Source: Actinomycetota bacterium
GTDB lineage: Bacteria > Actinomycetota > UBA4738 > CALAEC01
DNA length: 64,000 nt
Reading direction: 5' to 3'
Assembly: GCA_050693035.1 (NCBI GenBank)
Contig: JBOGWB010000061.1
Coordinates: 6,834-70,833, forward strand
The stretch's first letter is position 1; each line of letters begins with the position of its first letter. Below are positions 5,531 to 27,716 of the stretch, piece after piece. The notes beneath the pieces were generated by a model. That model did no database searches. It was not told the DNA's origin and saw only the letters and a list, made by a program, of their open reading frames with translations. The position numbers and the translations under genes were made by a program.

Positions 5531-5555
5531 GTGCGGATTTCGCTTCCCGAGCTCA

Positions 5556-5945: not shown

Positions 5946-6166
5946 TGCCCACTCCCTTCAGGTCGCCGATATCTCCCAGGCAAACAGTGGCTCCGACCCA
6001 TGCAGGCATGTTGGCGTCGATCCAGGAGCCTGGTCAAGGACGGGAGATAGGCAACTCGTGGACACATTCAGGCCCGTGATCTGTGCAGATTCTCGGAGAT
6101 GCGATTCACACCGACTCCCTTGTCCGACTCGCCGCCCCCCTCGAGAATTCCTCACGGAACTGGCAA

Positions 6167-6748
6167 TCACCTTTTGGTCCTCAGGAAGCGTCTGAGACGC
6201 CCGGAAGGACTCGCGAGACGAAATCCCACGCCACGAACCGACTCGATCGTTAGTCTGACGCCATCGGCTCGAAGCTTCCTCCGCAAGCGTTTCACGGCGG
6301 CATGGATGGCCTCGATGTCACCGTAAAACGCCGCACCCCAGACCCTCTTGTAGAGATCACTGAAGGTGCACGCTCGCCCTGGATTCTCCGCCAGGACGAC
6401 CAGGAGCTGGAACTCGTGATCAGTGAGATCCAGTGGCGTTCCAAACCACCGAACCCTCCGCTCGGTCAGGTCGATCTCAAGATGGTCAACCCGGAGGATG
6501 ACGCGAGGAAGATCCCGCTCGCTTCGGAGTCCTAAGGCTTGTGGGAGCCATAGGCGTGCGATCTCGAGGCTCGGCGCGAGCACAACCAGAGAACCGCGGT
6601 CGACCAGGTCGTCGATGCGAGGATGATCCTTGGTCTCCTCTCCGATAAGAAGCACGAGAGGTGGCGATCTCGACAGCGCGGCTGTCCGGGAGGGCGGTGC
6701 AGGACCAGGCATCGTGAGCATCCTGACTCTAGGCCACTCAATAAGCAT
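6167..6748 (-). CDS. OmpR/PhoB-type winged-helix DNA-binding regulator with atypical N-terminal region
   Basis: The C-terminus reads LEIDLTERRVRWFGTPLDLTDHEFQLLVVLAENPGRACTFSDLYKRVWG...AVKRLRRKL...IESVRGVGFRL. The N-terminal part is short and shows no clear receiver acidic pocket. Confidence 0.7.
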   Translation of the reverse strand: MLIEWPRVRMLTMPGPAPPSRTAALSRSPPLVLLIGEETKDHPRIDDLVDRGSLVVLAPSLEIARLWLPQALGLRSERDLPRVILRVDHLEIDLTERRVRWFGTPLDLTDHEFQLLVVLAENPGRACTFSDLYKRVWGAAFYGDIEAIHAAVKRLRRKLRADGVRLTIESVRGVGFRLASPSGRLRRFLRTKR

Positions 6749-10131: not shown

Positions 10132-10254
10132 CTTCAGGTCTCCGTGCGCCCGATTGCCGGGACGGTAGCCTCACCGCGCTGAAAGGTCAACCCCTGCGTT
10201 GGGATCGTTCGGGTCCCTCGCTGCCCGGTTCCCACCGGCCCCAACAGGAGAGCC

Positions 10255-10524
10255 GTGCCCCTGACGCTTCTGGCACTCTCTGCTCCGTGCACGTCGTGGC
10301 CCAAGGTGTACGTTTCTGTCGGTCCGCCCTGGGAGACGCGCTCGAAGGCGGGCATGCACCCAATGGCTGTGAAGGAGATGATGGGCCACTCAAGCATCCG
10401 AGTGACCTACGACGTCTACGGCCACCTGTTCCCGACGATGCACGAAGCCAGCATCGCCTCCTTAGAAGCCGCTTTCCCCAGCGCCAAGCACCGAGAGGAG
10501 AAAGGCCAGCAGCGTTACGAGTAA
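10255..10524 (+). pseudogene. tyrosine recombinase (phage integrase) C-terminal remnant
   Basis: AGMHPMAVKEMMGHSSIRVTYDVYGHLFP matches the integrase C-terminal box (LGHSSI..T..Y.H) including the catalytic Tyr. The upstream LLALSAPCTSW looks like a degraded H.LRHT.AS box. No N-terminal or core-binding part is present. Confidence 0.6.
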
Positions 10525-10890
10525 CAGCGATCCCTCGCGGCTCGCGCAGTGGAGGAAGTTTGGTGAATTGACGAGGCATACAGGTTGAGAGGTACCGACT
10601 GAGAAGAGACGTGCGTCCGGGACAAGTGCAGACCACCATCGTCGAAGACCGCGATGCCTGCCACGATCACCTCTTGCATCGAAGCTGGCCACTCTCCGAA
10701 GCGTGAACCGCCCGATACCGAGACTCTTCCCGAATGCGGGACATCCATTCCAGGTCTAGCCAATTCTGACTATTGACAGTTCCTCCCCCTCCATAGCAGA
10801 AACCGAGCAAGCGGGACGGCACCGCCGAGCTTGAGGCCGCTTCGTCCTTCCCCACTCTGGTTGCGGGGTGCCCGGAGGGAGGGAGCTGAA

Positions 10891-13800: not shown

Positions 13801-15753
13801 GACGCCGTAGGAAACCTCAGGACTCGCACCGACGCCAAGACGCACGTGACCACGTACGGTTACGATCAAGCCAACCGTCTCTCAAGCGTCACGTTGCCCC
13901 TGAACCGGCAATGGACCTACGACTACGATGCGTCGGGCAACCTCACAACGACCATCGATGCGGCAGGAAGCGCGACTCCCCAAACTGGAGACGGCACGAC
14001 CACCTACTCGTACGATGCGCTGAACAGGCTCACCGGCATCGACTACAGCGACGCCACTCCCGATGTCACCTTTGGTTACGATGCCAACTCAAACCCCACC
14101 TCGATGACCGACGGAGCCGGGACCGAAACATACACATTCGACGATCTCGACCGCCTCACGCGAGTTACCCGCGGAAGCCAAACCTTTTCTTACGAGTACG
14201 ACGCCGCCGGGAACGTTACCAAGAGGACCTACCCCGACAGTACTGTAGTGGACTATTCGTATGATGACGATGGCCGTCTCTTGAACATCACTTCCGGTGG
14301 AGCCACGACGACCCACGGCTATGATGTGGCTGGGAATCTCACACAGATCACGCTGCCTTCCGCGAACGGATATGGCGAAACCCGCACTTATGACCGTGCG
14401 GGACGGCTTACAGAAGTGAAGAATGCGAAGGGGACGGATGTCCTCTCGCGGTTCACCTACACGCTCGATGCCGTAGGCAACCCGACCCAGGTCGTCACGC
14501 CAACGGAGACAATCACCTATCAGTACGACAACATGGATCGCCTGACCGAAGTCTGCTACCAGGCGAGCTGCCCCGGGGCCAATGACCCCTTCATTCGACA
14601 CAGTTACGATAACGTTGGGAACAGGTCAACCGAGACTCGACCGGCCGGAATCACGACGTACAGCTACAACGACGCCGATCAGCTCACCTCACGTAGCGGG
14701 CCGAGTGGGACCACCTCTTACTCCTATGACCCCAACGGGAATCAGACCGCCGCAGGCAACACGACCTTCACCTATGACCTGGCAAACCGGATGAAGTCCG
14801 CCACGACAGGCCCCACGACCATCACCTACACATACGATGGCGCAGGGAAGCGCCTGCAGGCTTCATCCGGGAGCCAGGCTTCCAAGAAGACAAACTACCT
14901 CTCGGACGTCAATGGAATTCTTAGCCAGCTTGCCCTTGAGCGTGATGGCAGCGACCGGCTGCTCCGACGATATGTGCATGGACACGATCTCGTTTCCATG
15001 AGCACCGGAGGCGCCCCATACTACTATCACCACGACGGACTGGGGAGCATTGCCAATCTCACTTCAGACAAGGGCGTGCTTCAGTGGACATACTCGTACG
15101 AGCCCTTCGGCGTTGTCCGTAGCGAGATCAAGAACAACCGCAACGCACCCACAAACCTGATGCGCTTCGCCGGCGAGCTGCTTGACACGACCACGGGCCT
15201 CTATCATCTCCGGGCCCGAGAATACGATGCAACCACGGGACGGTTGCTCAGGATTGATCCGCTACCTGCTCCAATCTCGGCACCCTACACGGGACGATAC
15301 GTATACGTCGGCAACCGGCCGACTGTTCTAGTCGATCCCAGCGGGCTTCGGGGAGTCGACAAGTCAGGCTGTCCCTACTGGGGACGGCTGTTAACCTTCG
15401 GGGAGTGGGAGAACGTCTACTGCGAGGGCTTCCAGAGCATGAGCCCAGGGTGGCAGGCGGCTCTGGGTGGGAACTGGAACTTTAGTGCCTGCTGGTACGG
15501 CTGTATTACCGTGGGGGCCGAGGGCATTTCCATCGGGTTCTTCCAGTTTGGGCCCGGCAAAACACGAATTCGACAGGGCTTCGGCTTCGCCGCTTACGCG
15601 ACGATTGGATCAGAGCCTGAGAGCGGACTGTCTGCCATGGTCTGCAATGGCGTTTGCCTAGGCGGGTACGGGAATGTTGGGGCGCCGGGAGGAGGCGCGC
15701 AGGTGGGAATCGGCACGCCCGGCGTATTTTTGGGCGGGAATATCGAACCGTGA
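10891..15753 (+). CDS. secreted RHS/YD-repeat polymorphic toxin (WapA-like)
   Basis: ATG at 10891 gives the signal peptide MALRRLLVVLIIPLIVF. It has seven PD40-like repeats, then DPVNSATGSFVTSATDIALPGIGIPFVFSRSYTS, dozens of YD repeats (Y.YD..GNL...TDP.GN) and the RHS core YYYHHDGLGS...GLYHLRAREYDATTGRLLRIDP...VLVDPSGL, followed by a 134-aa variable tail. Confidence 0.9.
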   Translation: MALRRLLVVLIIPLIVFELPPLPGLDRSPQPAWADGPGTSLVSIGDAEEFPNGTGEFGSISSDGRYVAFESAASNLVAGDTNSKLDVFVRDRVAGTSRRVSISSSGEQGNGHSGGPPSISGDGRFVVFTSQATNLVSGDTNGITDVFAHDLVTGTTTRVSVDSSGNQSNDISSLPRISGDGRYVVFQSDASNLVPEDTNGGVFGQDIFLHDRVTAETSRMSVGPSGQQCDCDSSDPSISSDGQFVAFRSDGLTPGESHVGFAIYVRQVSPYDIEIVSNGPEDTPANGNTGELSWISADGRYVAFASWATNLVPNDTNELEDIFLHDRLTRSAKRVNLSSSGAQANNYDFGAVRRISVSAHGRFIAFASDATNLVPFDTNMQRDIFVRDVVAGTTTRVSVDNSGNQSSSASERPAISSNGRYVVFDSRMLSGGSLQVHIRDQGPLLSIPDAQTFGPCQSATHAANPTDCQSDPVNSATGSFVTSATDIALPGIGIPFVFSRSYTSADTSPGPLGIGWTHNYGVSLTIQPNGDAIFRAETGQQIPFTLQADGSFLPPSGGRSTLRAVQGGYELLTRDQIRYRFDTQGRVTSLKERNNQGLTFSYDADGRLNVITDSVGRAISLTYNPSGLLSGVSVPDGRSVAYGYTSGRLSSVTDVRGGTSSYTYDANGWLEAVVDANSHTVVTNTYGSGGRVIRQVDALGNPSTFSWDSATQTQTMTDARGNTWQDVYSGNVLIRRIDPLGNTITFDYDDDLNLMSITDPRGNTTLLAYGQAGNLISRTAPRPLAYKETFKYDAQNNLVSRRDGRGNTTRYDYDAAGNLIRVTEPGNVVTEYGRHPDGTGQLVSITDPRLKVTRFDYDTSGNLTTITSPLGNVIRICYDSAGRMTSLVEPRGITCANPDDYRWVYTYDAAGNMLTETDPLGNRTTWGYDSAGNLTSRIDAKDRTTSWAYNAANELTSVTAPGNIITSYDYDAVGNLRTRTDAKTHVTTYGYDQANRLSSVTLPLNRQWTYDYDASGNLTTTIDAAGSATPQTGDGTTTYSYDALNRLTGIDYSDATPDVTFGYDANSNPTSMTDGAGTETYTFDDLDRLTRVTRGSQTFSYEYDAAGNVTKRTYPDSTVVDYSYDDDGRLLNITSGGATTTHGYDVAGNLTQITLPSANGYGETRTYDRAGRLTEVKNAKGTDVLSRFTYTLDAVGNPTQVVTPTETITYQYDNMDRLTEVCYQASCPGANDPFIRHSYDNVGNRSTETRPAGITTYSYNDADQLTSRSGPSGTTSYSYDPNGNQTAAGNTTFTYDLANRMKSATTGPTTITYTYDGAGKRLQASSGSQASKKTNYLSDVNGILSQLALERDGSDRLLRRYVHGHDLVSMSTGGAPYYYHHDGLGSIANLTSDKGVLQWTYSYEPFGVVRSEIKNNRNAPTNLMRFAGELLDTTTGLYHLRAREYDATTGRLLRIDPLPAPISAPYTGRYVYVGNRPTVLVDPSGLRGVDKSGCPYWGRLLTFGEWENVYCEGFQSMSPGWQAALGGNWNFSACWYGCITVGAEGISIGFFQFGPGKTRIRQGFGFAAYATIGSEPESGLSAMVCNGVCLGGYGNVGAPGGGAQVGIGTPGVFLGGNIEP
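11053..12217 (+). repeat. seven tandem ~58-aa PD40/TolB-like beta-propeller repeats (protein-level) inside the RHS gene
   Basis: The unit S(S/G)DGR(Y/F)V(A/V)F.S.A.NLV..DTN...D(V/I)F..D recurs near RHS ORF residues 83, 140, 199, 259, 317, 378 and 437. Confidence 0.7.
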
Positions 15754-15974
15754 GTAAGCCGAACAGACCTCGATTCAGCCGTACCGCAGGAATCGTGGCC
15801 ACAATTGCAGTGGTAGCGGTTGCCGGGTTCGTGCTTACGCGCTCTATCCCAGGTGTCTGGTGGAGAATTGTCTATGTCGGCATGGTCTTGCTGGTCCTGA
15901 TTAACATCGCTGTTGGGGAGCGCGACGGTCTCTACGATCGCGCCACGAGATGGCTTAGGCGGTTCCGTCAATAG
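15750..15974 (+). CDS. putative RHS immunity protein, 74 aa, two TM helices
   Basis: GTG at 15750 forms a GTGA overlap with the RHS stop (15751-15753). It is in frame with track ORF 15654..15974. The sequence is VSKPNRPRFSRTAGIVATIAVVAVAGFVLTRSIPGVWWRIVYVGMVLLVLINIAVGERDG... Confidence 0.5.
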   Translation: MSKPNRPRFSRTAGIVATIAVVAVAGFVLTRSIPGVWWRIVYVGMVLLVLINIAVGERDGLYDRATRWLRRFRQ

Positions 15975-16203
15975 GCAGCTGACCATCAGACTCGATGACC
16001 CTGGGTTTCTGGGTGGGTCGAATCGGAGCGGGGGGACCGTTTCCGTTGTGGCGATGCCACGACGATCAAGTGGGTCGCGTTAGGCGGGTCCGGATCGGGT
16101 CCATCCTCCAGTACGTTCGGAACCTCCCCTGGGAGCGGGCCGTCCTCCGGGACTTCTTCCCCTCCGAGTTCCACGACTGGCCGGAGCCATGGTGGCCGGG
16201 ACC

Positions 16204-16527
16204 ATGAGCATCGAGATCACGGTGGCCATCATCGCCGCGTCCCCTCCCACCCTTGCCGCCATCCTGGCCTTCCTCCAGAGCCGGTCCGTCCGCCGGCAGG
16301 TGGCGACCAGCGGGAAGGCCCCCATCGGGGCGGTGGTGGAGCGCCTCGAGCGAAGGGTGGAGCGGCTGGACGAGAAGGTGTCGGGGATCGCGGACCGCCT
16401 CGCGCACATGGAGGGGCGGGAGGTCCTTCCCCTGCGGCTCGACCGGCGCGTGGAGCGGCTGGACGAGGAGCTGCGCGCCCTGGGCGAGCGTGTGGCCCGG
16501 ATCGAGCCGAAGGGCGGGACCCCCTGA
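16204..16527 (+). CDS. small membrane-anchored coiled-coil protein
   Basis: MSIEITVAIIAASPPTLAAILAFL is a TM segment, followed by the duplicated heptad-like motif RLERRVERLDEKV / RLDRRVERLDEEL. Its stop overlaps the ATG of the next ORF (TGATG). Confidence 0.45.
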   Translation: MSIEITVAIIAASPPTLAAILAFLQSRSVRRQVATSGKAPIGAVVERLERRVERLDEKVSGIADRLAHMEGREVLPLRLDRRVERLDEELRALGERVARIEPKGGTP

Positions 16528-16787
16528 TGGACGCGGACCGGCGGATACGCGGCGGCACGAACGAGGACGTGCCGAGAGGAACGGCGAAGGAGCGCAACCT
16601 TCTGATGTCCGTTCAGGAGGGGGTGCTGCTCCGCGTCGAGGCGGCGGCGATCTTGCTCGGCATCGGCAGAACGACCATGTACGAGCTGATCAGGCGCAGA
16701 GCGATCCCCGTGGTGCGGATCGGACGCCGTACCCTCGTCCACCGCGCGGACTTGGAGCGATTCGCACAGGCCCAGCGCGGTCGGTAG
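16527..16787 (+). CDS. excisionase-family / MerR-like helix-turn-helix DNA-binding protein
   Basis: LLRVEAAAILLGIGRTTMYELIRRRAIPVVRIGRRTLVHRADLERF is a typical xis-type HTH. An alternative start is ATG at 16605. Confidence 0.7.
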   Translation: MDADRRIRGGTNEDVPRGTAKERNLLMSVQEGVLLRVEAAAILLGIGRTTMYELIRRRAIPVVRIGRRTLVHRADLERFAQAQRGR

Positions 16788-16960
16788 GGATCGATGTCCG
16801 CACGACCGCGTGGCTCGCTCACCATCCGACCGCCACGCCAGCCGGGTGGTCGTGCGGCACCGGCCGACGCTCCATCTCGGCAGAGATGTCATAGGAGTGC
16901 CGGACCATCCCCGCTACGGACCGGCCCCGAGTCGGGGCCGAAGGCGCAGGAGAACTGGTC

Positions 16961-18169
16961 GTGAGTAGGCGGCGTGGATACGGCGACGGAACGGTCAGGC
17001 AGCAGGGCCGACGATCGTGGCAAATCAGGGTCCCACTGGGTGCGGATCCGCTGACCGGAGCGTGGCTCAGGCACACCGAAACAATCACCGGAACCAAGGC
17101 TGAGGCGGAGAGAAGACGGCGGGAACTCCGCCTCGAGCGAGACAGAGGAACCCTTGCGACCCCGGGCAACAAGACCCTGGAGGAGTACCTCAGGAAGGAG
17201 TGGCTCACAGCCGTCTCCCATGTGTCGAAGCGCGGCCAGCCACTCGCTCCCACCACGCGCAGGCGATATGGGGACGTCGTCGACCACGTCTGCCGGTTGA
17301 TCGGCGACGTGAAGCTGGCCTCCCTGCGCACCGCCCACGTCGAGCGGCTCCGGGACGAGATGCTCAGCGAGACGCTGGAGCGGAAGAGCGGTGAGGTCAT
17401 CCCTCGCTTCAGCCCCCAGACCGTGGGCGACATCCTGCGAGTGCTGTCGCAGGCCCTGCGCAAGGCCGAGGCCAAGGGGCTGATCTCCAGGAACTGGGCG
17501 GACCCGACCCTCGTCGATCGTCCCGCCGGTCAACCCAGGGAACTGCCCCCGATGGAAGAGGATCTGGCGAAACGCATCCTGGAAGCGGTCCGGGGGGAGG
17601 ATCCCTGGGACGCGGCGGTTCATCTGGCATTGGGCCTGACGATGCGCCGAGAGGAGGTTCTCGGCCTCCGCTGGCCAGACGTCGACCTGCGGGAAGGGAT
17701 CCTCACCGTCAGGAACACGATCACCTACACGCCCAGACAGATGCACGAAGGGGGACCAAAGACGGAGGCTGGGAGGCGGACGGTCCCCGTGCCAGCGTTC
17801 GTGGGCGAGGCCCTTCGCCGCCATCGGAAGCAGCAGTCGAGGCGGCGCCTCCGCCTAGGGTCGGCTTGGCGGGACGGGTGGGACGTGGTGGTAGATCGGG
17901 GCGACGGTGCACCTTGGCTGCCCCCCACGTTTTCCAGAGCGTGGACGTCCTTCGCCAAGAAAGCGGGCTTCCCTGACATCGGGTTCCACGAGCTCCGACA
18001 CGGCGCTGCGACCCTCATGCTCGCCGCGGGGATCCCGGACGCGGTCGCCATCAAGTTGATGGGCCACCGAGACACCCGCATCCTCAGGCGCTATCAGAAA
18101 GTCGTCGACCGGCTCAAGCGAGAGGCTGCTGGGAAGTTGGACGAGCTGCTGGGCGGCCCGGGGAGCTGA
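16961..18169 (+). CDS. tyrosine-type site-specific recombinase (integrase)
   Basis: The GTG start gives a 402-aa protein. The N-terminus GYGDGTVRQQGRRSWQIRVPLG is SAM-like. Catalytic motifs are GLRWPDVDL, HELRHGAATLMLAAGIPDAVAIKLMGHRDTRILRRYQKV. Confidence 0.9.
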   Translation: MSRRRGYGDGTVRQQGRRSWQIRVPLGADPLTGAWLRHTETITGTKAEAERRRRELRLERDRGTLATPGNKTLEEYLRKEWLTAVSHVSKRGQPLAPTTRRRYGDVVDHVCRLIGDVKLASLRTAHVERLRDEMLSETLERKSGEVIPRFSPQTVGDILRVLSQALRKAEAKGLISRNWADPTLVDRPAGQPRELPPMEEDLAKRILEAVRGEDPWDAAVHLALGLTMRREEVLGLRWPDVDLREGILTVRNTITYTPRQMHEGGPKTEAGRRTVPVPAFVGEALRRHRKQQSRRRLRLGSAWRDGWDVVVDRGDGAPWLPPTFSRAWTSFAKKAGFPDIGFHELRHGAATLMLAAGIPDAVAIKLMGHRDTRILRRYQKVVDRLKREAAGKLDELLGGPGS

Positions 18170-18313
18170 GCCGAGAATGCGGCGAAGCGTGCTGCAATCA
18201 GTTCCCATCGAGAGGTGGCTTGTCGTTGAATTCCGGCATCCTTCACCAAATTGGGTTTGAATTGGATAGCGGACCACCGACTCCCGGCTCCGAAGCCACT
18301 CCTCCAGGGCTAC

Positions 18314-19603
18314 TCATTTGTCTCCCTCAATGATCCGCAGATACTCCTGGTAGCGTCGACGGGCGTTCTCGATCATGTCTTGGTAGGTCCACAAGACCGG
18401 GTAGTCTCGCATGTCAGCGAGCTCCCGAGCCTCATCAGAAATCTTGCGGCCAATAAGGTAGATAAGCGGGTTCTTCTTCTGACCCTGGTGCTTTCTAATC
18501 AAGCGTAGGTACAACTCGGCCTGGTCCACCTCCGGTTTCTTTATCTCCACGGATGGACGCTTGATTTCCACTAAGACCGGCCGCTTTCCAACGAGATCTA
18601 CACAAGCGAAGTCCGGACGATTCTTGGCATACTTGCGATCTGATTTCGCCAGCTCTTGCCCAATGATCTTCCTCAAGCTCCGGTTGGACTGCGCGATCCA
18701 GTACTCATCGTTCAGCAGCCACATGCTCTTCTCGAGTGTGCGGTGAATGGACTTGTCCCCCTTTAACTCGTATGTGTTGTCATCCAGCACAAGATCTTCC
18801 AGCGTGTCAATCGTGTTAATGCGTGATACCAGGATGTTGACGAGCGCGGTGACCTGCAGCAGATTCCACTCCTCCATCAGGTCAGTCAGTTCATCCAGCG
18901 CCTTGGCCGGCTCTTTAGCCAAGCGCTTGATAACGTCTTGGAAGGCGACCTGGATGCGCTTCTGACCCTTCGGAATCGCCGCATCGACGGAACTGAGGAG
19001 ATCAAATGCGAAATCGGCTCCCTGCCTCTCCACGAGATCAGCGATTCGTTCGGGGAGCTTCTTCCGCTCCCTCTTTGGTATAGCCTCGGCGGCTTCGGGC
19101 AAGCGGCTTAGAACCCGCTTGACTTCCTTCGTTTCAGGAAGGACATCATCAGATGTTCTGGTGAAGGTCTCCGGAAACGCCTCATTGAGGAACTGAGTTG
19201 CCGTTCGGAGGCCCGTCTGTCGGTAAACCTCAAAGAAGCGTGCCTGGCCCGCCTCTCGAAATGCCTCGTAGTTGACTACTACTCGTTTCGCTCCTATGGA
19301 CGACTCTCCGTCGGATAGCACGAGCGCGCAATCGGACCCGAGCTCTGCACGAATCAATTCGATAAGGTGCTTTCCACCGCGGAACCCTCTAAGGAGTAGG
19401 GCGTCGTAGGCTCTGGTGCCATCTCGGAACTTTCGCTTCTCCAGGTCCTTCTTCAGATCCGCGCTGATAAACAGCGGCTGGTCCTTCAGCGCTCCATAAC
19501 TGCGATTCTGAATCTCGATCGGAATGGGTTGCGCCAAGCCCGCTTGCGTACGTCGCTTGCGTCCTCCAGAAGGCTGCTTTGGTGATGTCCGTTTCCGCGT
19601 CAC
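18314..19603 (-). CDS. DUF4263 / Shedu (SduA)-like PD-(D/E)xK nuclease-domain protein
   Basis: The C-terminal part reads IHRTLEKSMWLLNDEYWIAQSNR...NRPDFACVDLVGKRPVLVEIKRPSVEIKK...QAELYLRLI. This fits the D...E.K core and flanking pattern I associate with DUF4263. It has the lowest GC sampled in the window (48% and 55% in two hand-counted lines). Confidence 0.6.
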   Translation of the reverse strand: MTRKRTSPKQPSGGRKRRTQAGLAQPIPIEIQNRSYGALKDQPLFISADLKKDLEKRKFRDGTRAYDALLLRGFRGGKHLIELIRAELGSDCALVLSDGESSIGAKRVVVNYEAFREAGQARFFEVYRQTGLRTATQFLNEAFPETFTRTSDDVLPETKEVKRVLSRLPEAAEAIPKRERKKLPERIADLVERQGADFAFDLLSSVDAAIPKGQKRIQVAFQDVIKRLAKEPAKALDELTDLMEEWNLLQVTALVNILVSRINTIDTLEDLVLDDNTYELKGDKSIHRTLEKSMWLLNDEYWIAQSNRSLRKIIGQELAKSDRKYAKNRPDFACVDLVGKRPVLVEIKRPSVEIKKPEVDQAELYLRLIRKHQGQKKNPLIYLIGRKISDEARELADMRDYPVLWTYQDMIENARRRYQEYLRIIEGDK

Positions 19604-19658
19604 TTGTGGTTCCTGCCTGCTCTCTTCTTGAAAGCGATTAGCGGATACATGTGCGAGG

Positions 19659-20780
19659 TCACCTCTTGTCGGTGGGCCAATGAATCGGCTTTTTGAGATC
19701 GTTGAGGTGCGATCGCGGCACCTTGGCGTCCCGTTGAAGCCGGCCTACAACAATCCCGGGAGCAATTTCCTGGGCCTGCGCGAAGACACGAATAGCGCTG
19801 GCGCTGAAATCGCCCGCATCGACGAACGCCTGGTACTCGTGTGGTGGCAGCAGAACGTCTCGGGCGAACCGGTTCGCCGTCTCCTCGTCAGCGTCGGAAT
19901 CCGGGGGAAACTCCAGGTCGACCGGGTCGACGAACTCTCGCTTTCGAGAAGAGGTGAGGACATGGCCAGCCTCATGGAAGAAAGTGAACCAGAAGTGATC
20001 GTCCGACTTATGGCGCGCGCTGAGCTGGATGACTGGACTGCCACCGACCCAGCGGATAGCGCCGCTGATGTGCGTGCCCTCGAACTCAGGGGTTAGGAGA
20101 ACGATGACGCCGGCCTTGGCGCACATCGTTATGACCCGATTGAGAATCTGCATGAATGGACCACGGCGCGTCATTGGTCGAATCTGTTCCAGGACCTGCC
20201 GGAATCCATGGGCATCAAAGGGCGGCAGATCAGCAATCTCGGCGGCTAGGATCTCGCCCCAGCGCAGCCAGGCGGCCACCGCCTTAGGTGATGCCATGAA
20301 CGCCGGTGACGAACGGTAGGCCGCCTCCGGAGCAAGCCAATGCCGCTCGAAGGCTTCGGGGCTGCTCACCTGGAAGAAGGAGAGCAGCTCGGCCAGCGTT
20401 CCCGCTTTCGTAGCACCACGCCGGATCAGGTCGCGCCGGATGAGATCCTTGAGTGGGAAGCCATCGGCCCAACTGGCATTGGCCTCAAGTTCCTTCTGGG
20501 CCTCCTGACGGGCCGCATGTTCGCGAAACCTGGTCTCCAGCCCTGTCCAGAACCTCGCCGAGATGCCGAGGGCCCGCTCAAGCTGGATCGCCGTCTCAGC
20601 GGTGATCGCTGCCTTGCCCTTGATGATCTCGTTGATGGTCTTCAGGGGGCGCGCCATCCGGCGGGCCAGCTCGGACTGTGTCATCCCGCGATCCTGCAAG
20701 GACTCAAGGAGGATCTCGCCGGGCGGGACGGTCCAATCGGGCTGCCAGCCCGACGTTGGGTCATTTGCCATGGTAGTCAA
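19659..20780 (-). CDS. HigA-type XRE HTH fused to ImmA/IrrE-type zinc metallopeptidase
   Basis: The N-terminus PGEILLESLQDRGMTQSELARRMARPLKTINEIIKGKAAITAETAIQLERALGISARFW is a HigA/VapI HTH. The C-terminus FWFTFFHEAGHVL carries HExxH. The start overlaps the upstream HigB-like gene. Confidence 0.8.
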   Translation of the reverse strand: MTTMANDPTSGWQPDWTVPPGEILLESLQDRGMTQSELARRMARPLKTINEIIKGKAAITAETAIQLERALGISARFWTGLETRFREHAARQEAQKELEANASWADGFPLKDLIRRDLIRRGATKAGTLAELLSFFQVSSPEAFERHWLAPEAAYRSSPAFMASPKAVAAWLRWGEILAAEIADLPPFDAHGFRQVLEQIRPMTRRGPFMQILNRVITMCAKAGVIVLLTPEFEGTHISGAIRWVGGSPVIQLSARHKSDDHFWFTFFHEAGHVLTSSRKREFVDPVDLEFPPDSDADEETANRFARDVLLPPHEYQAFVDAGDFSASAIRVFAQAQEIAPGIVVGRLQRDAKVPRSHLNDLKKPIHWPTDKR

Positions 20781-21072
20781 CGACCTCCTTGATCACGATT
20801 TTCGTCACTCGGGCCCGGTCGGTGCCTCCAGCGGGCAACCGGGGCAACGGATCGTGATCGGGTTCGAAGATCAGTCGATACGAACCCCACAGGTCGACAG
20901 CGAACTCGCCGGCACGGTCTGCACGAAGCTGATGGCAGTTGCCCGGCACCCCTTCCATGTCCCGCAAGGTCGGAGCGGCCATCAACGACGCCAGCCGAAG
21001 CTTGAGCCGCCGCCAGTTTTCCGCGCCCCAACGCTTCGCTCCCCGTCGATCGTCGGAACACGTCTTCTCCAA
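20761..21072 (-). CDS. HigB-like (RelE/ParE superfamily) toxin; true 5' end unclear
   Basis: LRLASLMAAPTLRDMEGVPGNCHQLRADRAGEFAVDLWGSYRLIFEP...VIKEVVDYH matches the plasmid-maintenance killer HigB pattern. Homology continues upstream of the TTG at 21072 (KIEISWSNRRLEK, to about 21110), where no canonical start is present. Confidence 0.65.
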   Translation of the reverse strand: MEKTCSDDRRGAKRWGAENWRRLKLRLASLMAAPTLRDMEGVPGNCHQLRADRAGEFAVDLWGSYRLIFEPDHDPLPRLPAGGTDRARVTKIVIKEVVDYHGK

Positions 21073-21165
21073 CCTACGGTTGGACCACGAAATCTCGATT
21101 TTCGCTCCCTTGACTTCTTCACCCTTGGGGTTAATACTACACTACCCCTAGGGAGGAATACCAGG

Positions 21166-22302
21166 GTGGCCAGGAGGTGGGTTCAACAGGCATTCGAGGA
21201 CGTGGATTTCGTCCCGGTGCCCGGTGGCAGCGGTCACTACGTCGCGGCCGTCCAGAACAAGTCCGGCGAATTGGATGCACTCCGCAACGCTTCGGCGGAG
21301 ACGTGGAGCCGGCTGACCCCGCTCGTCCAAATCGTGGGCCCCAAAAAGCGGCCTGAAGCACACAAGCGAGACACGGTCGCCGGCTGGGTCAAGCGCATCT
21401 CCCAGGCGGTTGGTCATCGGCCATGTTTCCTAGACGTCCTCCGCCTTCGTCCAGGACATCCCACGACGACATCCGGGGGAGCCGAGCCGATTCTCAGCGT
21501 CATCCACGCGGCGGCTCGGAAACGCGGCATGGTCTTCGTCCCGGTCCTGCCCATCGGCCGTTCCGACGGCAGAGATTACGTGCGCCTCGCCGGCGAGGCC
21601 GTGGCCTGCGATGGACGAGGCGCCGCGCTGCGGTATCCGATACGGCGCTTCGCGCTGGAACCAGGCGAGACCCACGCGACCGTGCTCGCCGAGGCCCTCA
21701 GGGACCTGGGGATCGACGTGACTCGTGCAGACGCCCTCGTCGATCTCGGCTACCTCTCAGGGGACGAGGAGCTGCACCTCGAAGATGTGGACGAAGCCCT
21801 CAAGGAGGTGACTGCCGTCGGTCCGTGGCGCAGCCTCGTGCTGCTCGGCACCTCGATGCCATCCATGCTCGGAGGGACGGTCGGCGAGGGAACGATCGGC
21901 GAGCTGCCGCGCCGAGAGTGGGAGCTATGGTCCGCGCTTCAGCAGGATACCTCTAGGCGAATGCCAACCTACGGCGACTACGTCGTTCAGCATCCTGATC
22001 CGCCACGCGACGAGGATGGTGGTGGCCCCGGCATGCGAGCCAACATCCGTTACACAATTACGAGCACCACGCTCGTTGCTCGGGCGCGCGGGCCGCTAAT
22101 CCAGGAGGGCCGGGAGCAGTACCGGGACCTCTGTCAGCAACTCGTCGCCAGACCGGAGTTCTCGGGCCCCGACTTCAGTTGGGGAGATTCAGTGATTGCT
22201 GCATGTGCCAGCGGGGAAAGCGAGCCCGGATCGCAGAACCAGTGGCGAGGAGCAGGATCATCCCACCACTTCCGCGTTGTGACACAGGCGCTCAGCCGCT
22301 GA
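21166..22302 (+). CDS. beta-protein family (PF14350-like; sce7725-like) protein
   Basis: GTG at 21166 is preceded by GGGAGG. HYVAAVQNKSGELDALRNASAETWSRLTPLVQI matches the Y.P.L+.K.GE..AL...TPL.E. opening of the T4 beta-protein family as I recall it. The upstream 200 codons of track ORF 20563..22302 are antisense to higBA and were ignored. Confidence 0.6.
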   Translation: MARRWVQQAFEDVDFVPVPGGSGHYVAAVQNKSGELDALRNASAETWSRLTPLVQIVGPKKRPEAHKRDTVAGWVKRISQAVGHRPCFLDVLRLRPGHPTTTSGGAEPILSVIHAAARKRGMVFVPVLPIGRSDGRDYVRLAGEAVACDGRGAALRYPIRRFALEPGETHATVLAEALRDLGIDVTRADALVDLGYLSGDEELHLEDVDEALKEVTAVGPWRSLVLLGTSMPSMLGGTVGEGTIGELPRREWELWSALQQDTSRRMPTYGDYVVQHPDPPRDEDGGGPGMRANIRYTITSTTLVARARGPLIQEGREQYRDLCQQLVARPEFSGPDFSWGDSVIAACASGESEPGSQNQWRGAGSSHHFRVVTQALSR

Positions 22303-23083
22303 CGTCAACAGTGCAGAACCGACGCGTGGGGATGCGAGCGAGACCGGGATCCCGCGCGAGAATGGCCCTGCGGACCACCTCTTTCAACCGATCGACGTCA
22401 ACCAGGCTGATCAGGTGGCCCCACATCGACGACCGACTGGCCTGAGCATCGGGTTCATGCCCGAGCGCGGCCAGAACCGCGCGAACCTCCTCTCGCCAGA
22501 GGAGCCGAACCAGCGTCTCGGGATCGACGCCGTGGTTGGGAGTCGCCGATCGCACGGAGCGGAAGGACGGCTGCCCCTCGTCCGTGACGATGGTCACGAT
22601 ACCCCACCACTCGGGCAGCATCTCCATCGCGGCAGCGACATGGCGTTCCGCTAGGACGATGGTGCACCGATCGAAAAGACGAGCGTAAGCGGTCGCCTGA
22701 CGTGGGAGTCGCTTGAGGGTATCTCGCTCTGTCTTTATTTCGAAGGCCGACATGTGGCCGCCGACAACCACGACATCGGCTCTCTCATTCGAGCGCGGCA
22801 CCCAGAATTCGTAGATGGTCTCGCTCGGAGTCTTGGCTGAGGCGACTATCTCAGCGCGCAGCCGGTCTCGGACGATCGCCTCAGTCGCCTCCACAGGCCG
22901 ACCCAGCCTCGGAGGTGGGAGGGCCAGCCATCGGAGTTCACGCACGTGAGTGAAGCTGTCGTGAGGTCCCGCGCATTCCTTGGCAAGGTCAGAGCAGGAC
23001 GCCGCTCCGAACATACGTTCGAGTATGGGAGGGGCCACCGACACGCCGGCTAGTCGACCATAGGGGCGCCTCCGACACCACAT
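22292..23083 (-). CDS. PD-(D/E)xK nuclease-fold protein (sce7726-like / MmcB-like)
   Basis: ERADVVVVGGHMSAFEIKTERDTLKRLPRQATAYARLFDRCTIV carries D-x11-E-I-K. The likely start is ATG at 23014 (MFGAAS...). The 3' end overlaps the convergent beta-protein gene by 11 bp. Confidence 0.6.
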   Translation of the reverse strand: MWCRRRPYGRLAGVSVAPPILERMFGAASCSDLAKECAGPHDSFTHVRELRWLALPPPRLGRPVEATEAIVRDRLRAEIVASAKTPSETIYEFWVPRSNERADVVVVGGHMSAFEIKTERDTLKRLPRQATAYARLFDRCTIVLAERHVAAAMEMLPEWWGIVTIVTDEGQPSFRSVRSATPNHGVDPETLVRLLWREEVRAVLAALGHEPDAQASRSSMWGHLISLVDVDRLKEVVRRAILARDPGLARIPTRRFCTVDVSG

Positions 23084-23312
23084 CTTGAGGCGAAAAACCC
23101 TCCCGGGATGGACCCCCTGGGATCGCCCAACCGATCGGCCGCCTTGATTGCTCCATCGATTCGAGGACGTGTCGCCGAGGCCAGTCGTGGGCCATCTCTG
23201 CCGTCTTCGGGAGGAAGCAAATAGGGCGGAACATAGGGCGAGAATTACTCGGAGGAACAGACGTTCGAATCGCGAAGTCAGGGAAACCGCAGTTCAAGAG
23301 GGTTCTTCTTTG

Positions 23313-23385
<73 letters not shown>

Positions 23386-23409
23386 GTGGCTCCAAGTCTA
23401 CCAAGGGCC

Positions 23410-23841
23410 CTACCGGCCCGTGGACCCGAACCCTCCCCCGCCTCGGTCCGATCCGGGCAGCTCGGGAACCTCCACCGGTTCCACCTGGGCGAACGGGACC
23501 ACTAGGAGCTGGGCGATGCGGTCTCCCCGGCGGATCTCCACGGCATCTTCCCGGTCCAGGTTCACCACGGCCACGATGATCTCCCCCCGATACCCGGCAT
23601 CGATCAGGCCCGGCGCGTTGGCCAGCGTGAGCCCGCGCCCGGAGGCCAGCCCGGACCGGGGAAGGACCAGTCCGGCATGGCCCGGGGGGATGGCCACGGC
23701 CAGGCCCGTGGGGACCAGGGCCCGGTCCCCCGGTTTCACCGTGACGTCCTCGTTGGACCGCAGATCGAGCCCGGCGTCGCCTTCCTTCGCGTAGGAGGGA
23801 AGGTCGACGGCCCGGTCGAGCCGCTTGAACTCGAGTCTCAC
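23410..23841 (-). CDS. dut: dUTP diphosphatase
   Basis: GDAGLDLRS, RSGLA...GL.LANAPGLIDAGYRGEI, GDRIAQLLV and C-terminal GGFGSTGR are canonical trimeric dUTPase motifs. Confidence 0.93.
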   Translation of the reverse strand: MRLEFKRLDRAVDLPSYAKEGDAGLDLRSNEDVTVKPGDRALVPTGLAVAIPPGHAGLVLPRSGLASGRGLTLANAPGLIDAGYRGEIIVAVVNLDREDAVEIRRGDRIAQLLVVPFAQVEPVEVPELPGSDRGGGGFGSTGR

Positions 23842-26258: not shown

Positions 26259-27716
26259 TCAGTTACTCCTTCCAGCGGCTCCTGCTTCTACCCAGGCTGT
26301 GGAAATCGCCAGCTCTGGAACAGCCGCTCTGAGTTTCTTCAAGCAGACGGTCTTCTTTGGGCCGTCTCCGCACCTGCGAAGCGAAAGTATGAGAGCCCTC
26401 CTCAGATGAGCGTCCCCGATCGTCAGGGCAAGCTCCGTCGCGTGGACGGGTCTCCAGCCTGGACCTCGTGCTCTCGCCTCCACACCCCAAGACCGACGGG
26501 GAACATATTGAGAAACGTCCCCTCCTAGGGACGTTTGCTCAACCTCGGCGGCCTCGACTTCACCGAGCCGTCCGCTGGAAAGGGCTCGCAGAAGGTGGAG
26601 CTGTTGAGCTGCGGAACGATCGTCGCAGGGCAAAGATGCCTGTCCTACAATCCACGCAGCATCGATGCGACGGGCAGCCAACAACCGCCCAAGGTAGGAA
26701 CCGCACTCGCGGGGAGCGATCGTCAAGATGTCGGGTCGAGATTGAAGAAGCGGGAAGGCAAACGGGTCGTCTCTCGCTCCCAGAACCTTGAGGCAAAACC
26801 GAACTCGTCTCGGGCTTGGCTCCTGCTCACCAAACCCCGACTCCAGCAGCGCTTTGACATGGCGGATGCCGTCTCCTGCCTGGAGAGCCTCGCTGACACG
26901 ACCGAGTGCAGGGTCCAGTAGAAAGTGCTCCGCCGGTAATGCGCCTTCGATAAGGTGAGTCTTCTCCTCGTTTAGCTGAAGACCGAGATTCGACACCTCC
27001 ATCCCGATCACGCCACGGATAGCTTCCCAGTCATAATCTCCGGAGAGATAGATCCGCACGTCGTCGGTGTAACGATCGAATGAGTGCCCCCATCCCCGCA
27101 GAGCGTGGTCCACAGAGACGAGAGCAGCGTTGCCCAGGATTCCAGACCCTTCCAGTCCGATAGGCAACCCCCGAACCCCCACATCTCCCGCATGGTCTGG
27201 AGCCATCCCAATAGGTCGGTGATCGCCCCACGATCGCACCCGACCCTTAGAAGCGCCCGAGAAAGGGCTTCGGAAGTAAGCGATGGATAATATTCTCGGA
27301 TGTCCACGGTTCCGAGGGCCGCGAAGGAAGGGTCAGAGAGAATCTGCTTGGCTCGATCTCGTCGAACCCGGTTCGCGTAAGCTGTGGCCCTACAGGACCA
27401 ACCTGGAGGCCATCGGACCAGCCGATAGGATAAGTTTTCCGGGCCCCATCTCCGCTTCGACAGAGGCAGCGACCCTCCCAACAAGCCATCGATATCCGAT
27501 CTCATCAATTGGTTCCGGCACGACCATCCGTCTCAGGCTGGGAGAGCTCTCTTTAGGCAACGGGAACGTGTGGCACGGAGCAGGCAGTGGTTGCTTGAGT
27601 CTCCTCAAAGCCGAAAGGGCGGCACGCTCGTCGAAGGCTGCATAGTCAGCCCAACCGACGACGTCGGGAACGGTCCCGCTCCCTTGTCCAGGGCCGCCCA
27701 GCGTGGAGAGTCTTGA
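26259..27716 (-). pseudogene. reverse transcriptase (UG/Abi-like, non-retron) read across three frames; pseudogene or homopolymer assembly errors
   Basis: Frame X (to 27390) reads FPLPKESSPSLRRMVVPEPIDEIGYRWLVGRV, RT motifs 1-2. Frame Y (27008..27508) reads LSYRLVRW...GTVDIREYYPSLTSEAL, motif A. Frame B (26259..27239) reads RGLPIGLEGSGILGNAALVSVDHAL, FDRYTDDVRIYL (YxDD) and GLQLNEEKT, then about 230 aa of helical tail. The Y-to-B shift lies at two G5 runs (27168-27180). Confidence 0.7.

What the first reader, a model, noticed from the sequence alone, without database searches (positions are those of the whole stretch)
21166..23083. Convergent beta-protein / PD-(D/E)xK (sce7725/sce7726-like) pair abutting tRNA-Gly: candidate uncharacterised two-gene defence module
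Two ORFs converge and overlap by 11 bp at their 3' ends (22292-22302). The 378-aa plus-strand protein opens with HYVAAVQNKSGELDALRNASAETWSRLTPLVQI, the signature I associate with the T4 'beta protein' family (Pfam Beta_protein). The minus-strand protein carries a clean D-x11-E-I-K nuclease core (ADVVVVGGHMSAFEIKTERD).

From memory, NCBIfam lists 'sce7725' and 'sce7726' family proteins as recurrent neighbours with no assigned function, and these sizes fit. The pair sits between a TA-like/Shedu-like block and a tRNA gene, which is a typical defence-island position. I know of no experimental characterisation of this pair.
Basis: partly seen in the sequence, partly recalled or inferred. Interest (0 to 1): 0.72.

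Follow-up and report, generated by a model that had tools for sequence, protein, structure and literature searches.

The report
Beta/cII core of PD-lambda-2-like defence cassette
The two converging genes are real, but they are not an unknown pair: they are the "beta" and "cII" genes first seen in satellite phage P4, and here they form half of a four-gene, PD-lambda-2-like anti-phage cassette together with the neighbouring HigB-like and Xre-peptidase genes.

Summary
A 378-aa Beta_protein gene (21166-22302, +) and an sce7726/Phage_P4_cII gene (22292-23083, -) converge with an 11-bp overlap. The cII gene probably starts at 22894. Its D-x11-E-x-K core is invariant across the family.

This is the beta-cII arrangement of satellite phage P4, part of the tested gop-beta-cII anti-phage system. 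The Beta protein also matches PADLOC PD-Lambda-2_C (1e-44). The neighbouring Xre-HTH/M78-peptidase gene matches PD-Lambda-2_B (6e-32), and the 112-aa gene beside it is HigB-like.

All four genes recur together in about 56 distinct loci. They share a 66-nt control region with a covarying palindromic operator, and their divergence is correlated (r 0.79-0.92).

Across 170 loci from many phyla, beta and cII always converge, and their 3' ends overlap in 158. In loci found through Beta alone, cII was present in 82 of 82. The upstream partners vary: gop, HigB plus Xre-M78, FRG, or none.

So beta-cII is a conserved core shared by two named defence systems. The window carries an actinobacterial variant with an inverted A-B unit, a different HigB family and a conserved AUC start codon. 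The mechanism is still inferred. No sce7725 match was found.

The parts
19659..20780 (-). Gene B: Xre-type HTH (HigA-like) fused to an M78 (ImmA/IrrE) zinc peptidase. The mechanical ORF is 373 aa. The gene caller's version is 370 aa, starting at the ATG at 20771.
   Evidence: Pfam HTH_3 2.4e-8 and Peptidase_M78 5.5e-8. TIGR02607 HigA 1e-15. PADLOC PD-Lambda-2_B 5.8e-32. HEAGH at residues 269-273; HExxH is invariant in 59/59 homologues.
20761..21099 (-). Gene A: 112-aa HigB-family (RelE-fold) protein. Translation starts at a conserved non-canonical ATC codon (21099-21097). The mechanical TTG start at 21072 would remove a conserved N-terminal strand.
   Evidence: A profile of 25 homologues hits HigB 'killer protein' structures: 6f8s 1.4e-8, 4mct 2e-5. 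H56, R75 and the C-terminal D-Y-H are conserved. PF05015 is matched by 13/25 members. phrog_3066 'toxin of TA system' 1.1e-10. Start codon in 68 distinct loci: ATC 57, ATA 5, ATG 4, GTG 1. No PADLOC PD-Lambda-2_A hit even at E<=10.
21100..21165 (.). Shared divergent control region. It contains the SD of A, a promoter-like site for C (TTGACT at 21110-21115, 17-nt spacer, AATACT at 21133-21138), the palindrome TTCACCC-TTG-GGGTTAA (21118-21134) and the SD of C (GGGAGG).
   Evidence: This is the only sigma-70-like site in 20700-23420. The palindrome is present with at least 7/8 complementary arms in 59 of 66 distinct homologous control regions. Its arms change together: TTCACCC/GGGTGAA, TATAACCC/GGGTTATA, TTTAACCC/GGGTTAAA.
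21166..22302 (+). Gene C: Beta protein (P4 beta family), 378 aa, predicted TIM-barrel-like fold.
   Evidence: PF14350 1.1e-60. PADLOC PD-Lambda-2_C 1.3e-44 and beta 4e-7. 20% identity to P4 beta over 252 aa, E=1e-6. AF2 pLDDT 90.5; Foldseek hits are only generic TIM barrels. Y25, R156, D193 and D271 are invariant across 22 diverse members, including P4.
22292..22894 (-). Gene D: cII/sce7726-family PD-(D/E)xK protein, about 200 aa from the GTG at 22894. The open frame continues to the ATG at 23083.
   Evidence: NF033832 7e-42. PADLOC cll 6.5e-24. Precomputed Pfam PF26915 Phage_P4_cII. E92, D103, E115 and K117 (numbering of the 263-aa ORF) are invariant, including in P4 cII. AF2 pLDDT 91.2; BFVD hits to MmcB-like and PD-(D/E)xK phage proteins.
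22292..22302 (.). 11-bp overlap of the convergent 3' ends of C and D (TCAGCCGCTGA).
   Evidence: C and D are convergent in 170/170 loci, and their 3' ends overlap by 4-140 nt in 158/170.
23312..23385 (-). tRNA-Gly(GCC). This is context: the probable integration target of the island that carries the cassette.
   Evidence: ARAGORN.
16961..18169 (+). Tyrosine integrase. This is context: the other end of the roughly 6.5-kb island. An HTH_17 excisionase-like gene lies just upstream.
   Evidence: PF00589 2.1e-19. HTH_17 gene called in L001. GC drops to 0.57 at 18-20 kb.

Best explanation
The pair is the conserved beta-cII core of a four-gene, PD-lambda-2-type anti-phage/toxin-antitoxin-like cassette. 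The cassette sits on a small integrase-bearing island next to tRNA-Gly. Beta is a TIM-barrel-like protein and cII is a PD-(D/E)xK nuclease-fold protein.

Shown here:
- The four genes are A (HigB-like), B (Xre-HTH plus M78 peptidase), C (beta) and D (cII).
- They are inherited together, while the flanking genes differ between loci.
- A-B and C share a 66-nt control region with a conserved palindromic operator that overlaps the C promoter.
- C and D are always convergent and nearly always overlap at their 3' ends.

Inferred working model:
- The HTH of B binds the palindrome and sets the expression of both transcription units.
- A and B form the toxic/neutralising pair, as measured for E. coli PD-lambda-2. 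There B alone is toxic and A rescues.
- Beta couples infection to release of toxicity. It is required for defence in PD-lambda-2 and restrains Gop in P4.
- The obligatorily linked cII nuclease is either the DNA-directed effector or a DNA-sensing partner of beta.
- Convergent, overlapping transcription may make cII and beta expression mutually antagonistic.
- The expected outcome is growth arrest or death of the infected cell (abortive infection).

The confidence of 0.7 applies to the identity and the four-gene composition (about 0.9 on their own) combined with a defence role by homology (about 0.65). The detailed regulatory and effector steps are much less certain (about 0.25).
For: Family membership.

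P4 has the same convergent beta/cII layout.

Experimental precedent:
- gop-beta-cII protects against lambda and P1 (PMC9122126).
- It is triggered by phage orf184 (bioRxiv 10.1101/2023.04.06.535777).

Linkage:
- In cII-retrieved genomic loci, Beta is adjacent and convergent in 79/80; the exception is cut off by the contig end.
- In Beta-retrieved metagenomic and viral loci, cII is present in 82/82 with enough downstream DNA.
- RefSeq plasmids annotate the two as neighbours in 15/17 hits.

Four-gene unit:
- A and B lie divergent from C in 56 distinct loci, and A-B-C or B-C are co-directional in 26 more.
- Identity to the window is correlated across 80 loci, r 0.79-0.92.
- Flanks differ in L001, L002 and L003.
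- The operator arms covary.

Defence context:
- The L003 cassette lies next to a Gabija-like OLD-TOPRIM/UvrD pair.
- The window cassette is on an integrase island beside another nuclease-like gene.

Active-site-like residues are conserved in all four proteins.
Against: - No experiment exists for this clade.
- Identity to the tested E. coli and P4 proteins is low (beta about 20%).
- A does not match any PADLOC PD-Lambda-2_A model. It belongs to a different HigB Pfam family (PF05015-like, versus PF09907 in E. coli).
- The gene order differs from the E. coli operon.
- The E. coli PD-lambda-2 clone had flanks under 400 nt, so it worked without a complete cII gene. cII may therefore be dispensable for defence.
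- No biochemical activity is known for Beta. Its fold matches are generic.
- The regulatory role of the 3' overlap is pure inference.
Confidence: 0.7

Rival explanations
1. Beta-cII is a self-sufficient two-gene defence module. The adjacent HigB-like/Xre-M78 genes are an independent TA system that merely sits next to it.
For: - 26 of 116 distinct loci have no B-type gene within 1.8 kb, including 8 of 9 viral contigs.
- E. coli phage-plasmid pSTEC1024_3 and a Rhodococcus plasmid carry the pair without A or B.
- The partner genes are interchangeable: gop, FRG-domain and others.
Against: - In the window's own clade, A and B accompany C and D in essentially every locus with enough sequence.
- The two units share a conserved operator-bearing control region.
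- The four genes diverge in step.
- In E. coli the Beta homologue is genetically part of the A-B-C system.
Confidence: 0.15
2. The cassette is mainly an addiction/stabilisation module for the integrative element. Post-segregational killing would keep the island at tRNA-Gly. Any anti-phage effect would be incidental.
For: - The HigB/HigA-like pair.
- Its location on an integrase-bearing island, on plasmids and on prophages.
- P4 gop/beta was historically read as a toxin-antitoxin pair.
Against: - Two homologous systems were isolated or validated by phage challenge.
- A phage gene triggers gop-beta-cII toxicity.
- A simple addiction module does not explain an obligately linked nuclease and a TIM-barrel protein with conserved catalytic-looking residues.
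Confidence: 0.15
3. cII is a lysogeny or transcription regulator of a mobile element, as its historical P4 name suggests, and Beta is a passive antitoxin. Neither would be an enzyme.
For: - The P4 gene name, and Vassallo et al. calling component C 'related to a P4 phage antitoxin'.
- No PDB sequence match for either protein.
Against: - The E...D...ExK residues are invariant across the family, and the fold matches MmcB-like and PD-(D/E)xK phage proteins.
- Solo family members in Herelleviridae phages sit among replication and recombination genes and are annotated as nucleases.
- Beta has a confident TIM-barrel model with invariant Y/R/D/D/H residues.
Confidence: 0.05

Closest known systems
PD-lambda-2 (Vassallo et al. 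2022, E. coli ECOR42; PADLOC/DefenseFinder 'PD-Lambda-2')
   Same: - Three of the four proteins correspond: a HigB-type small protein, an Xre-HTH plus M78 peptidase (PADLOC B model 5.8e-32) and a Beta_protein (PADLOC C model 1.3e-44).
- Canonical co-directional A(PF09907)-B-C operons found here in many phyla also carry the convergent cII gene.
   Different: - A belongs to another HigB family (PF05015-like) and hits no PD-Lambda-2_A model.
- A-B is transcribed divergently from C, from a shared operator region.
- A uses an AUC/AUA start codon.
- A fourth gene (cII/sce7726) is always present. It was not part of the published three-gene definition or of the tested clone.
gop-beta-cII of satellite phage P4 (Ghisotti 1990 as cited in Rousset et al. 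2022; DefenseFinder 'Rst_gop_beta_cll', PADLOC 'gop_beta_cll')
   Same: - Beta and cII homologues (PADLOC beta 4e-7, cll 6.5e-24; NCBI gives the P4 genes the same product names).
- The same convergent tail-to-tail arrangement.
- The PD-(D/E)xK residues are conserved in P4 cII.
   Different: - There is no gop homologue anywhere in the window.
- The toxin slot is filled by HigB-like A plus Xre-M78 B.
- P4 cII has a C-terminal extension of about 60 aa.
- P4 has a 27-nt gap with a terminator instead of an overlap.
- One survey reports the DefenseFinder-defined system only in Proteobacteria. The beta-cII core found here spans Actinomycetota, Chloroflexota, Acidobacteriota, Planctomycetota, Patescibacteria, Nitrospirota, Myxococcota and others.
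HigBA type II toxin-antitoxin systems, and ImmA/IrrE-type (CapP-like) protease-controlled repressors
   Same: - A has the HigB fold and the catalytic-region residues.
- B has a HigA-like HTH and an M78 HExxH peptidase domain (capP model 1.2e-7).
- There is a palindromic operator in the promoter region.
   Different: - The HTH and the peptidase are fused in one protein.
- In the E. coli relative the roles are reversed: B is toxic and A rescues.
- The pair is tied to two further genes.

Membership tests
Pfam Beta_protein (PF14350) / P4 beta family | Full-length match to the family HMM above the gathering score | tested here: met
   206 bits against a cut-off of 27, profile positions 1-338 of 342. 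NCBI names the identical protein 'beta family protein'.
NCBIfam sce7726_fam (NF033832) / Pfam Phage_P4_cII (PF26915) | HMM match above the curated cut-off; conserved D...ExK core | tested here: met
   143 bits against a cut-off of 70. PF26915 is precomputed for the identical protein. D103, E115 and K117 are invariant.
NCBIfam sce7725 family | The + strand protein matches the sce7725 model | tested here: not met
   No NCBIfam family at E<=0.01 for the window Beta protein or for 6 other Beta proteins, including two from myxobacterial loci. I did not verify that an sce7725 model is in the library.
gop-beta-cII system | A gop gene upstream of beta | tested here: not met
   No similarity between A and P4 gop. 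tblastn of gop against the whole window gives nothing below E=1.9.
gop-beta-cII system | Beta and cII homologues, convergent | tested here: met
PD-lambda-2 | Component B: Xre HTH fused to an M78 peptidase | tested here: met
   PADLOC PD-Lambda-2_B 5.8e-32 over residues 27-353. Pfam HTH_3 and Peptidase_M78. HExxH conserved.
PD-lambda-2 | Component C: Beta_protein | tested here: met
   PADLOC PD-Lambda-2_C 1.3e-44 and 2.4e-43.
PD-lambda-2 | Component A: HigB toxin of the PF09907 type, matching the PD-Lambda-2_A models | tested here: not met
   No PADLOC hit at E<=10. A is instead a PF05015-type HigB. Functionally analogous, but a different family.
PD-lambda-2 | Single co-directional A-B-C operon | tested here: not met
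   A-B is on the - strand and C on the + strand, divergent from a shared 66-nt region. Co-directional relatives exist: L035, L041, L050, L053.
PD-lambda-2 / gop-beta-cII | Protection against phage; toxicity relationships among the components | not testable with these tools
   Needs cloning and phage challenge.
PD-(D/E)xK nuclease superfamily (for cII) | Restriction-endonuclease-like fold carrying the E/D/ExK residues | tested here: inconclusive
   The motif is invariant. BFVD structural hits include MmcB-like, Mrr and PD-(D/E)xK proteins at E 6e-6 to 3e-3. PDB hits are not significant (best E=0.04).

The most novel reading that the evidence does not exclude
Beta-cII is a universal two-gene core onto which interchangeable toxin modules are plugged: Gop, HigB plus Xre-M78, FRG-domain proteins, or none. 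This would make PD-lambda-2 and gop-beta-cII two faces of one large, phylum-spanning superfamily that has not been recognised.

In this reading Beta is a true TIM-barrel enzyme acting on a nucleotide or nucleic-acid substrate. The near-universal convergent 3' overlap would be a built-in transcriptional-interference or antisense switch between Beta and the cII nuclease.

In the actinobacterial branch, the conserved AUC/AUA start codon of the HigB-like gene would make its translation sensitive to IF3 and to the state of translation initiation. Phage takeover of translation would then feed directly into the toxin/antitoxin balance.
Probability: 0.2. Interest if true: 0.65.

Novelty: new variant of a known kind. 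Interest (0 to 1): 0.4.

Why it matters
Two separately named defence systems, PD-lambda-2 and gop-beta-cII, share an obligately linked beta-cII gene pair. Current system definitions ignore this: PD-lambda-2 is defined without cII, and gop-beta-cII requires gop.

Recognising the core would let defence finders detect many more loci. The Beta family has about 3,500 clusters at 50% identity. It would also direct mechanistic work to the two least understood proteins, a TIM-barrel-like protein and a PD-(D/E)xK nuclease.

For this window specifically, the finding is a routine annotation of a variant of known systems, not a new kind of system.

Tried and rejected
- Island boundaries: direct-repeat searches over 9000-23500 found no tRNA-derived att repeat. 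The boundaries remain undefined.
- Sequence searches of PDB with profiles of Beta and cII found nothing at E<=1.
- PDB fold search for cII gave only non-significant nuclease-like hits.
- PDB fold search for Beta gave only generic TIM barrels, with no specific enzyme family.
- A 22-sequence diverse Beta alignment was too divergent to seed collection scans. A 9-sequence alignment worked.
- gop was looked for and is absent.
- sce7725 was looked for via NCBIfam and not found.
Whether that exact locus has a cII neighbour is therefore unknown. Only the size of the clone is known.
- The idea that the 429-aa nuclease-like gene (18314-19603) belongs to the cassette was rejected. It is absent from L002, L003 and the other loci.
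- Literature searches for PF14350 and sce7726 gave no mechanistic work.
Full report
**1. Observation**

The + strand gene is best placed at 21166-22302. Its GTG start is preceded by GGGAGG, and it encodes 378 aa. The - strand ORF 22292-23083 encodes 263 aa. The two stop codons interlock as TCAGCCGCTGA, an 11-bp overlap. tRNA-Gly(GCC) is at 23312-23385 on the - strand.

- The + protein is a full-length Pfam Beta_protein (PF14350, 1.1e-60).
- The - protein is an NCBIfam sce7726-family protein (7e-42, 143 bits against a cut-off of 70). The collection's precomputed Pfam label for it is PF26915, Phage_P4_cII.
- Identical proteins exist in a public Actinomycetota MAG, named 'beta family protein' and 'sce7726 family protein'.
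- An alignment with 17 homologues, including P4 cII, shows that the first 63 residues of the 263-aa ORF are not conserved. Most homologues are 190-200 aa. The real start is therefore probably the GTG at 22894, giving 200 aa.
- The Beta protein matched no NCBIfam model. Neither did six other Beta proteins, two of them myxobacterial. 'sce7725-like' is therefore unsupported.

**2. What the pair is**

PADLOC models named the locus at once:
- The Beta protein hits PD-Lambda-2_C (1.3e-44) and 'beta' (4e-7).
- The cII-like protein hits 'cll' (6.5e-24).
- The neighbouring 373-aa HTH_3 plus Peptidase_M78 protein (19659-20780, -) hits PD-Lambda-2_B (5.8e-32).

The P4 genome record shows gop (133 aa, +), beta (355 aa, +, 'beta family protein') and cII (264 aa, -, 'sce7726 family protein'). 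Beta and cII are tail-to-tail there, 27 nt apart. The 'convergent Beta/sce7726 pair' is thus the classic P4 beta-cII arrangement.

Published experiments:
- gop-beta-cII protects E. coli against lambda and P1, and gop is toxic without beta (PMC9122126).
- Its toxicity is triggered by phage orf184 (bioRxiv 10.1101/2023.04.06.535777).
- PD-lambda-2 has a HigB-like A, an Xre-peptidase B that is toxic alone and rescued by A, and a C 'related to a P4 phage antitoxin' that is required for defence (PMC9519451).
- Its Pfam labels are PF09907, PF06114 and PF14350.

**3. The unit in this window has four genes**

The small gene between B and C was listed mechanically as 103 aa from a TTG and gave no hits. 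Comparison of about 70 homologous loci shows a conserved peptide, I-E-I-S-W-S-N-R, beginning 9 codons further upstream. It is immediately preceded by a conserved AAGGAG at variable spacing and in variable frame. That sequence is therefore a ribosome-binding site, not coding.

The codon at that position is ATC in 57, ATA in 5, ATG in 4 and GTG in 1 of 68 distinct loci. Many loci, including the window, have no canonical start available. Co-directional orthologues have ATG at exactly this aligned position. All versions are 111-112 aa.

With the corrected N-terminus:
- A family profile hits HigB 'killer protein' crystal structures (6f8s 1.4e-8; Proteus vulgaris HigB 4mct 2e-5). H56 and R75 align to the HigB His and Arg, and the C-terminal D-Y-H is conserved.
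- 13 of 25 members hit PF05015.
- The window protein hits a PHROG annotated 'toxin of TA system' (1.1e-10).

B carries an HExxH motif that is invariant in 59/59 homologues.

**4. Conservation of the cassette**

Two Beta homologues (65% and 57% identical) looked up in long contigs have the same layout: B and A on one strand, C divergent from them, and D convergent with C. D had not been called by the gene finder there, but tblastn found it. The flanking genes are completely different.

A scan of 185,579 species-representative genomes with a cII alignment found 484 relatives. For the best 80 I built HMMs of A, B, C and D and searched six-frame ORFs. A Beta gene is adjacent and convergent in 79 of 80; the remaining contig ends at cII.

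The reciprocal test is unbiased with respect to cII. It used metagenome and viral contigs retrieved with a Beta alignment. cII was convergent and immediately downstream in 82 of 82 loci that had at least 650 nt downstream.

Over all 170 loci with both genes, the orientation is convergent in 170 and the 3' ends overlap by 4-140 nt in 158. RefSeq plasmids show 'beta family protein | sce7726 family protein' as neighbours in 15 of 17 hits.

**5. Variable partners**

Among 116 distinct loci with at least 1.5 kb upstream of Beta:
- 56 have A plus B divergent, as in the window. These are mostly Actinomycetota, with some Chloroflexota.
- 6 have the same A family in a co-directional A-B-C operon.
- 20 have co-directional B-C. 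In the two checked, the upstream 94-aa gene is a genuine PF09907 / PD-Lambda-2_A protein (4.5e-40).
- 8 have a B-like gene plus an unknown gene of about 200 aa.
- 26 have no B. Their partners include FRG-domain proteins or nothing recognisable, and they include 8 of 9 viral contigs and an E. coli phage-plasmid.

P4 has gop in this position. Canonical PD-lambda-2 operons therefore also carry the convergent cII gene, at least among the loci retrieved here. The published E. coli clone had flanks of under 400 nt and so cannot have held a complete cII.

More distant sce7726-family genes in Herelleviridae phages are solo. They sit among replication and recombination genes, and some are annotated as nuclease. 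Obligate pairing therefore applies to the clade with roughly 30% identity or more, not to the whole superfamily.

**6. Evidence that A-B and C-D are one system here**

- Percentage identity to the window proteins is correlated across 80 loci: r = 0.79-0.92, and 0.92 for C with D.
- The true A-C intergenic region is only 66 nt (21100-21165). It contains the sole sigma-70-like site in 20700-23420: TTGACT at 21110, a 17-nt spacer, and AATACT ending at 21138.
- Across the spacer and the -10 element lies the palindrome TTCACCC-TTG-GGGTTAA (21118-21134).
- The palindrome is present with at least 7/8 complementary arms in 59 of 66 distinct control regions. Its arms change together: TTCACCC/GGGTGAA, TATAACCC/GGGTTATA, TTTAACCC/GGGTTAAA. 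This is the signature of a dimeric HTH operator. The obvious candidate binder is the Xre domain of B, but that is an inference.

**7. Structure-based clues**

AlphaFold2 models are confident: Beta pLDDT 90.5, cII 91.2.

Beta is an alternating beta/alpha protein. Its PDB neighbours are all TIM barrels (aldolases, triosephosphate isomerase, dehydroquinase, Endo IV/UVDE and others), at E 7e-5 to 1e-3 and a TM-score normalised to the query of 0.3-0.4. No specific enzyme family stands out. Y25, R156, D193 and D271 are invariant across 22 diverse members including P4 beta, and E35, D189, R249, Y296 and H368 nearly so. Several of these residues lie on or just after predicted barrel strands. This hints at a catalytic or ligand-binding site rather than a passive antitoxin.

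cII has no significant PDB neighbour; the best are Bax1, AF1548 and VC1899, all nuclease folds, at E >= 0.04. It does match predicted viral structures, including MmcB-like DNA repair proteins, Mrr and PD-(D/E)xK proteins, at E 1e-13 to 3e-3. PDB sequence searches gave nothing for either protein.

**8. Mechanism**

Shown: the composition, the linkage, the shared operator region, and the conserved catalytic-type residues in all four proteins.

Taken from experiments on relatives: B is toxic and A rescues; C is needed for defence; beta restrains Gop; a phage protein triggers the P4 system.

Inferred:
- B represses both promoters through the palindrome.
- Infection perturbs the A/B/beta balance. 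The M78 peptidase is a plausible signal-responsive element by analogy with ImmA/IrrE/CapP (capP model 1.2e-7).
- HigB-type mRNA cleavage, cII-mediated DNA cleavage, or both, then arrest the cell.

Because beta-cII is constant while the toxin-like partner varies, I favour beta-cII as the sensing/regulating core and the upstream genes as exchangeable effectors. The reverse is not excluded.

The conserved 3' overlap suggests reciprocal transcriptional interference or antisense control between beta and cII. The AUC/AUA start of A suggests tightly limited, IF3-sensitive translation. Both are hypotheses.

**9. Context**

The cassette lies between a tyrosine integrase (16961-18169, with an HTH_17 gene upstream) and tRNA-Gly. 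GC content dips to 0.57 at 18-20 kb, against about 0.70 further into the window. No att repeat was found.

The adjacent 429-aa gene (18314-19603) has a C-terminal domain like that of BbrUII/HgiDII restriction enzymes (3e-11) and only a marginal Shedu SduA_C hit (0.016). It is not part of the conserved cassette. One homologous cassette (L003) sits beside a Gabija-like OLD-TOPRIM/UvrD pair.

**10. Novelty and verdict**

The pair is known and named. The window holds a variant of PD-lambda-2 that differs in three ways:
- a different HigB family for A, with a non-AUG start;
- an inverted A-B unit with a shared operator;
- the cII gene as a constant fourth member.

Two things did not turn up in the searchable literature, which treats the systems separately and reports gop-beta-cII only in Proteobacteria. 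One is that beta-cII is an obligate, convergent, 3'-overlapping core common to PD-lambda-2 and gop-beta-cII. The other is that it is spread over many phyla; the Beta family has 3,520 representatives at E<=1e-3 among 1.84 billion clusters.

That generalisation is moderately interesting. The window locus itself is ordinary. Rating: new variant of a known kind, interest 0.4.

Noticed in passing
window 21097-21099 (- strand); homologous loci L002, L003, L006-L033, L086-L150: The HigB-like gene A starts at a conserved non-canonical codon: ATC in 57, ATA in 5, ATG in 4 and GTG in 1 of 68 distinct loci. A strong AAGGAG lies 5-8 nt upstream. Co-directional orthologues have ATG at the same aligned position. 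Gene callers and the mechanical ORF list start the gene 9 codons too late. A near-cognate start conserved across a whole clade is unusual and may make toxin translation sensitive to IF3.
   Followed up: partly
window 21118-21134: The palindrome TTCACCC-TTG-GGGTTAA overlaps the spacer and -10 element of the Beta promoter. Its arms covary across 59 of 66 homologous control regions, so it is probably the operator of the Xre-HTH of gene B.
   Followed up: partly
window 18314-19603 (- strand): A 429-aa protein with a C-terminal domain similar to BbrUII/HgiDII-family restriction enzymes (3e-11) and phrog_6203 (5e-28), and only a marginal Shedu SduA_C hit (0.016). It is probably a separate nuclease-type defence gene on the same island, and it is absent from the other cassette loci.
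   Followed up: partly
window 26259-27508 (- strand): A 326-aa ORF carries the YxDD part of a reverse-transcriptase domain (RVT_1 3e-6, only profile positions 116-192). An overlapping 166-aa ORF lies upstream in another frame. This may be a frameshifted or split RT gene (retron, DRT or group II-like), 3 kb beyond the tRNA.
   Followed up: no
window 10831-15753 (+ strand): A 1640-aa RHS-repeat protein (RHS_repeat 1e-115, DUF6531, PD40 repeats). It is a polymorphic-toxin-type gene just upstream of the integrase island. The direct repeats at 11068-12026 and 12085-14749 are its internal repeats.
   Followed up: no
L005 (Mycolicibacterium phage Mycofy1, PQ356897.1) 4881-6579: An unannotated cII-like ORF (45% identical to the window protein) converges on and overlaps an annotated 'hypothetical protein' that is a Beta protein. 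It lies right after the lysis cassette of a mycobacteriophage, so the pair is also carried by actinobacteriophages.
   Followed up: partly
L003 11235-14410: A Gabija-like pair (AAA_15/OLD-TOPRIM followed by a UvrD helicase) lies 2 kb from a homologous four-gene cassette. This is defence-island context.
   Followed up: no
L175, L176 (Staphylococcus phage S25-3, Bacillus phage Zuko) and 546 phage records: Distant sce7726-family genes are widespread as solo genes in Herelleviridae, next to exonuclease and replication genes, with no Beta partner.
   Followed up: partly
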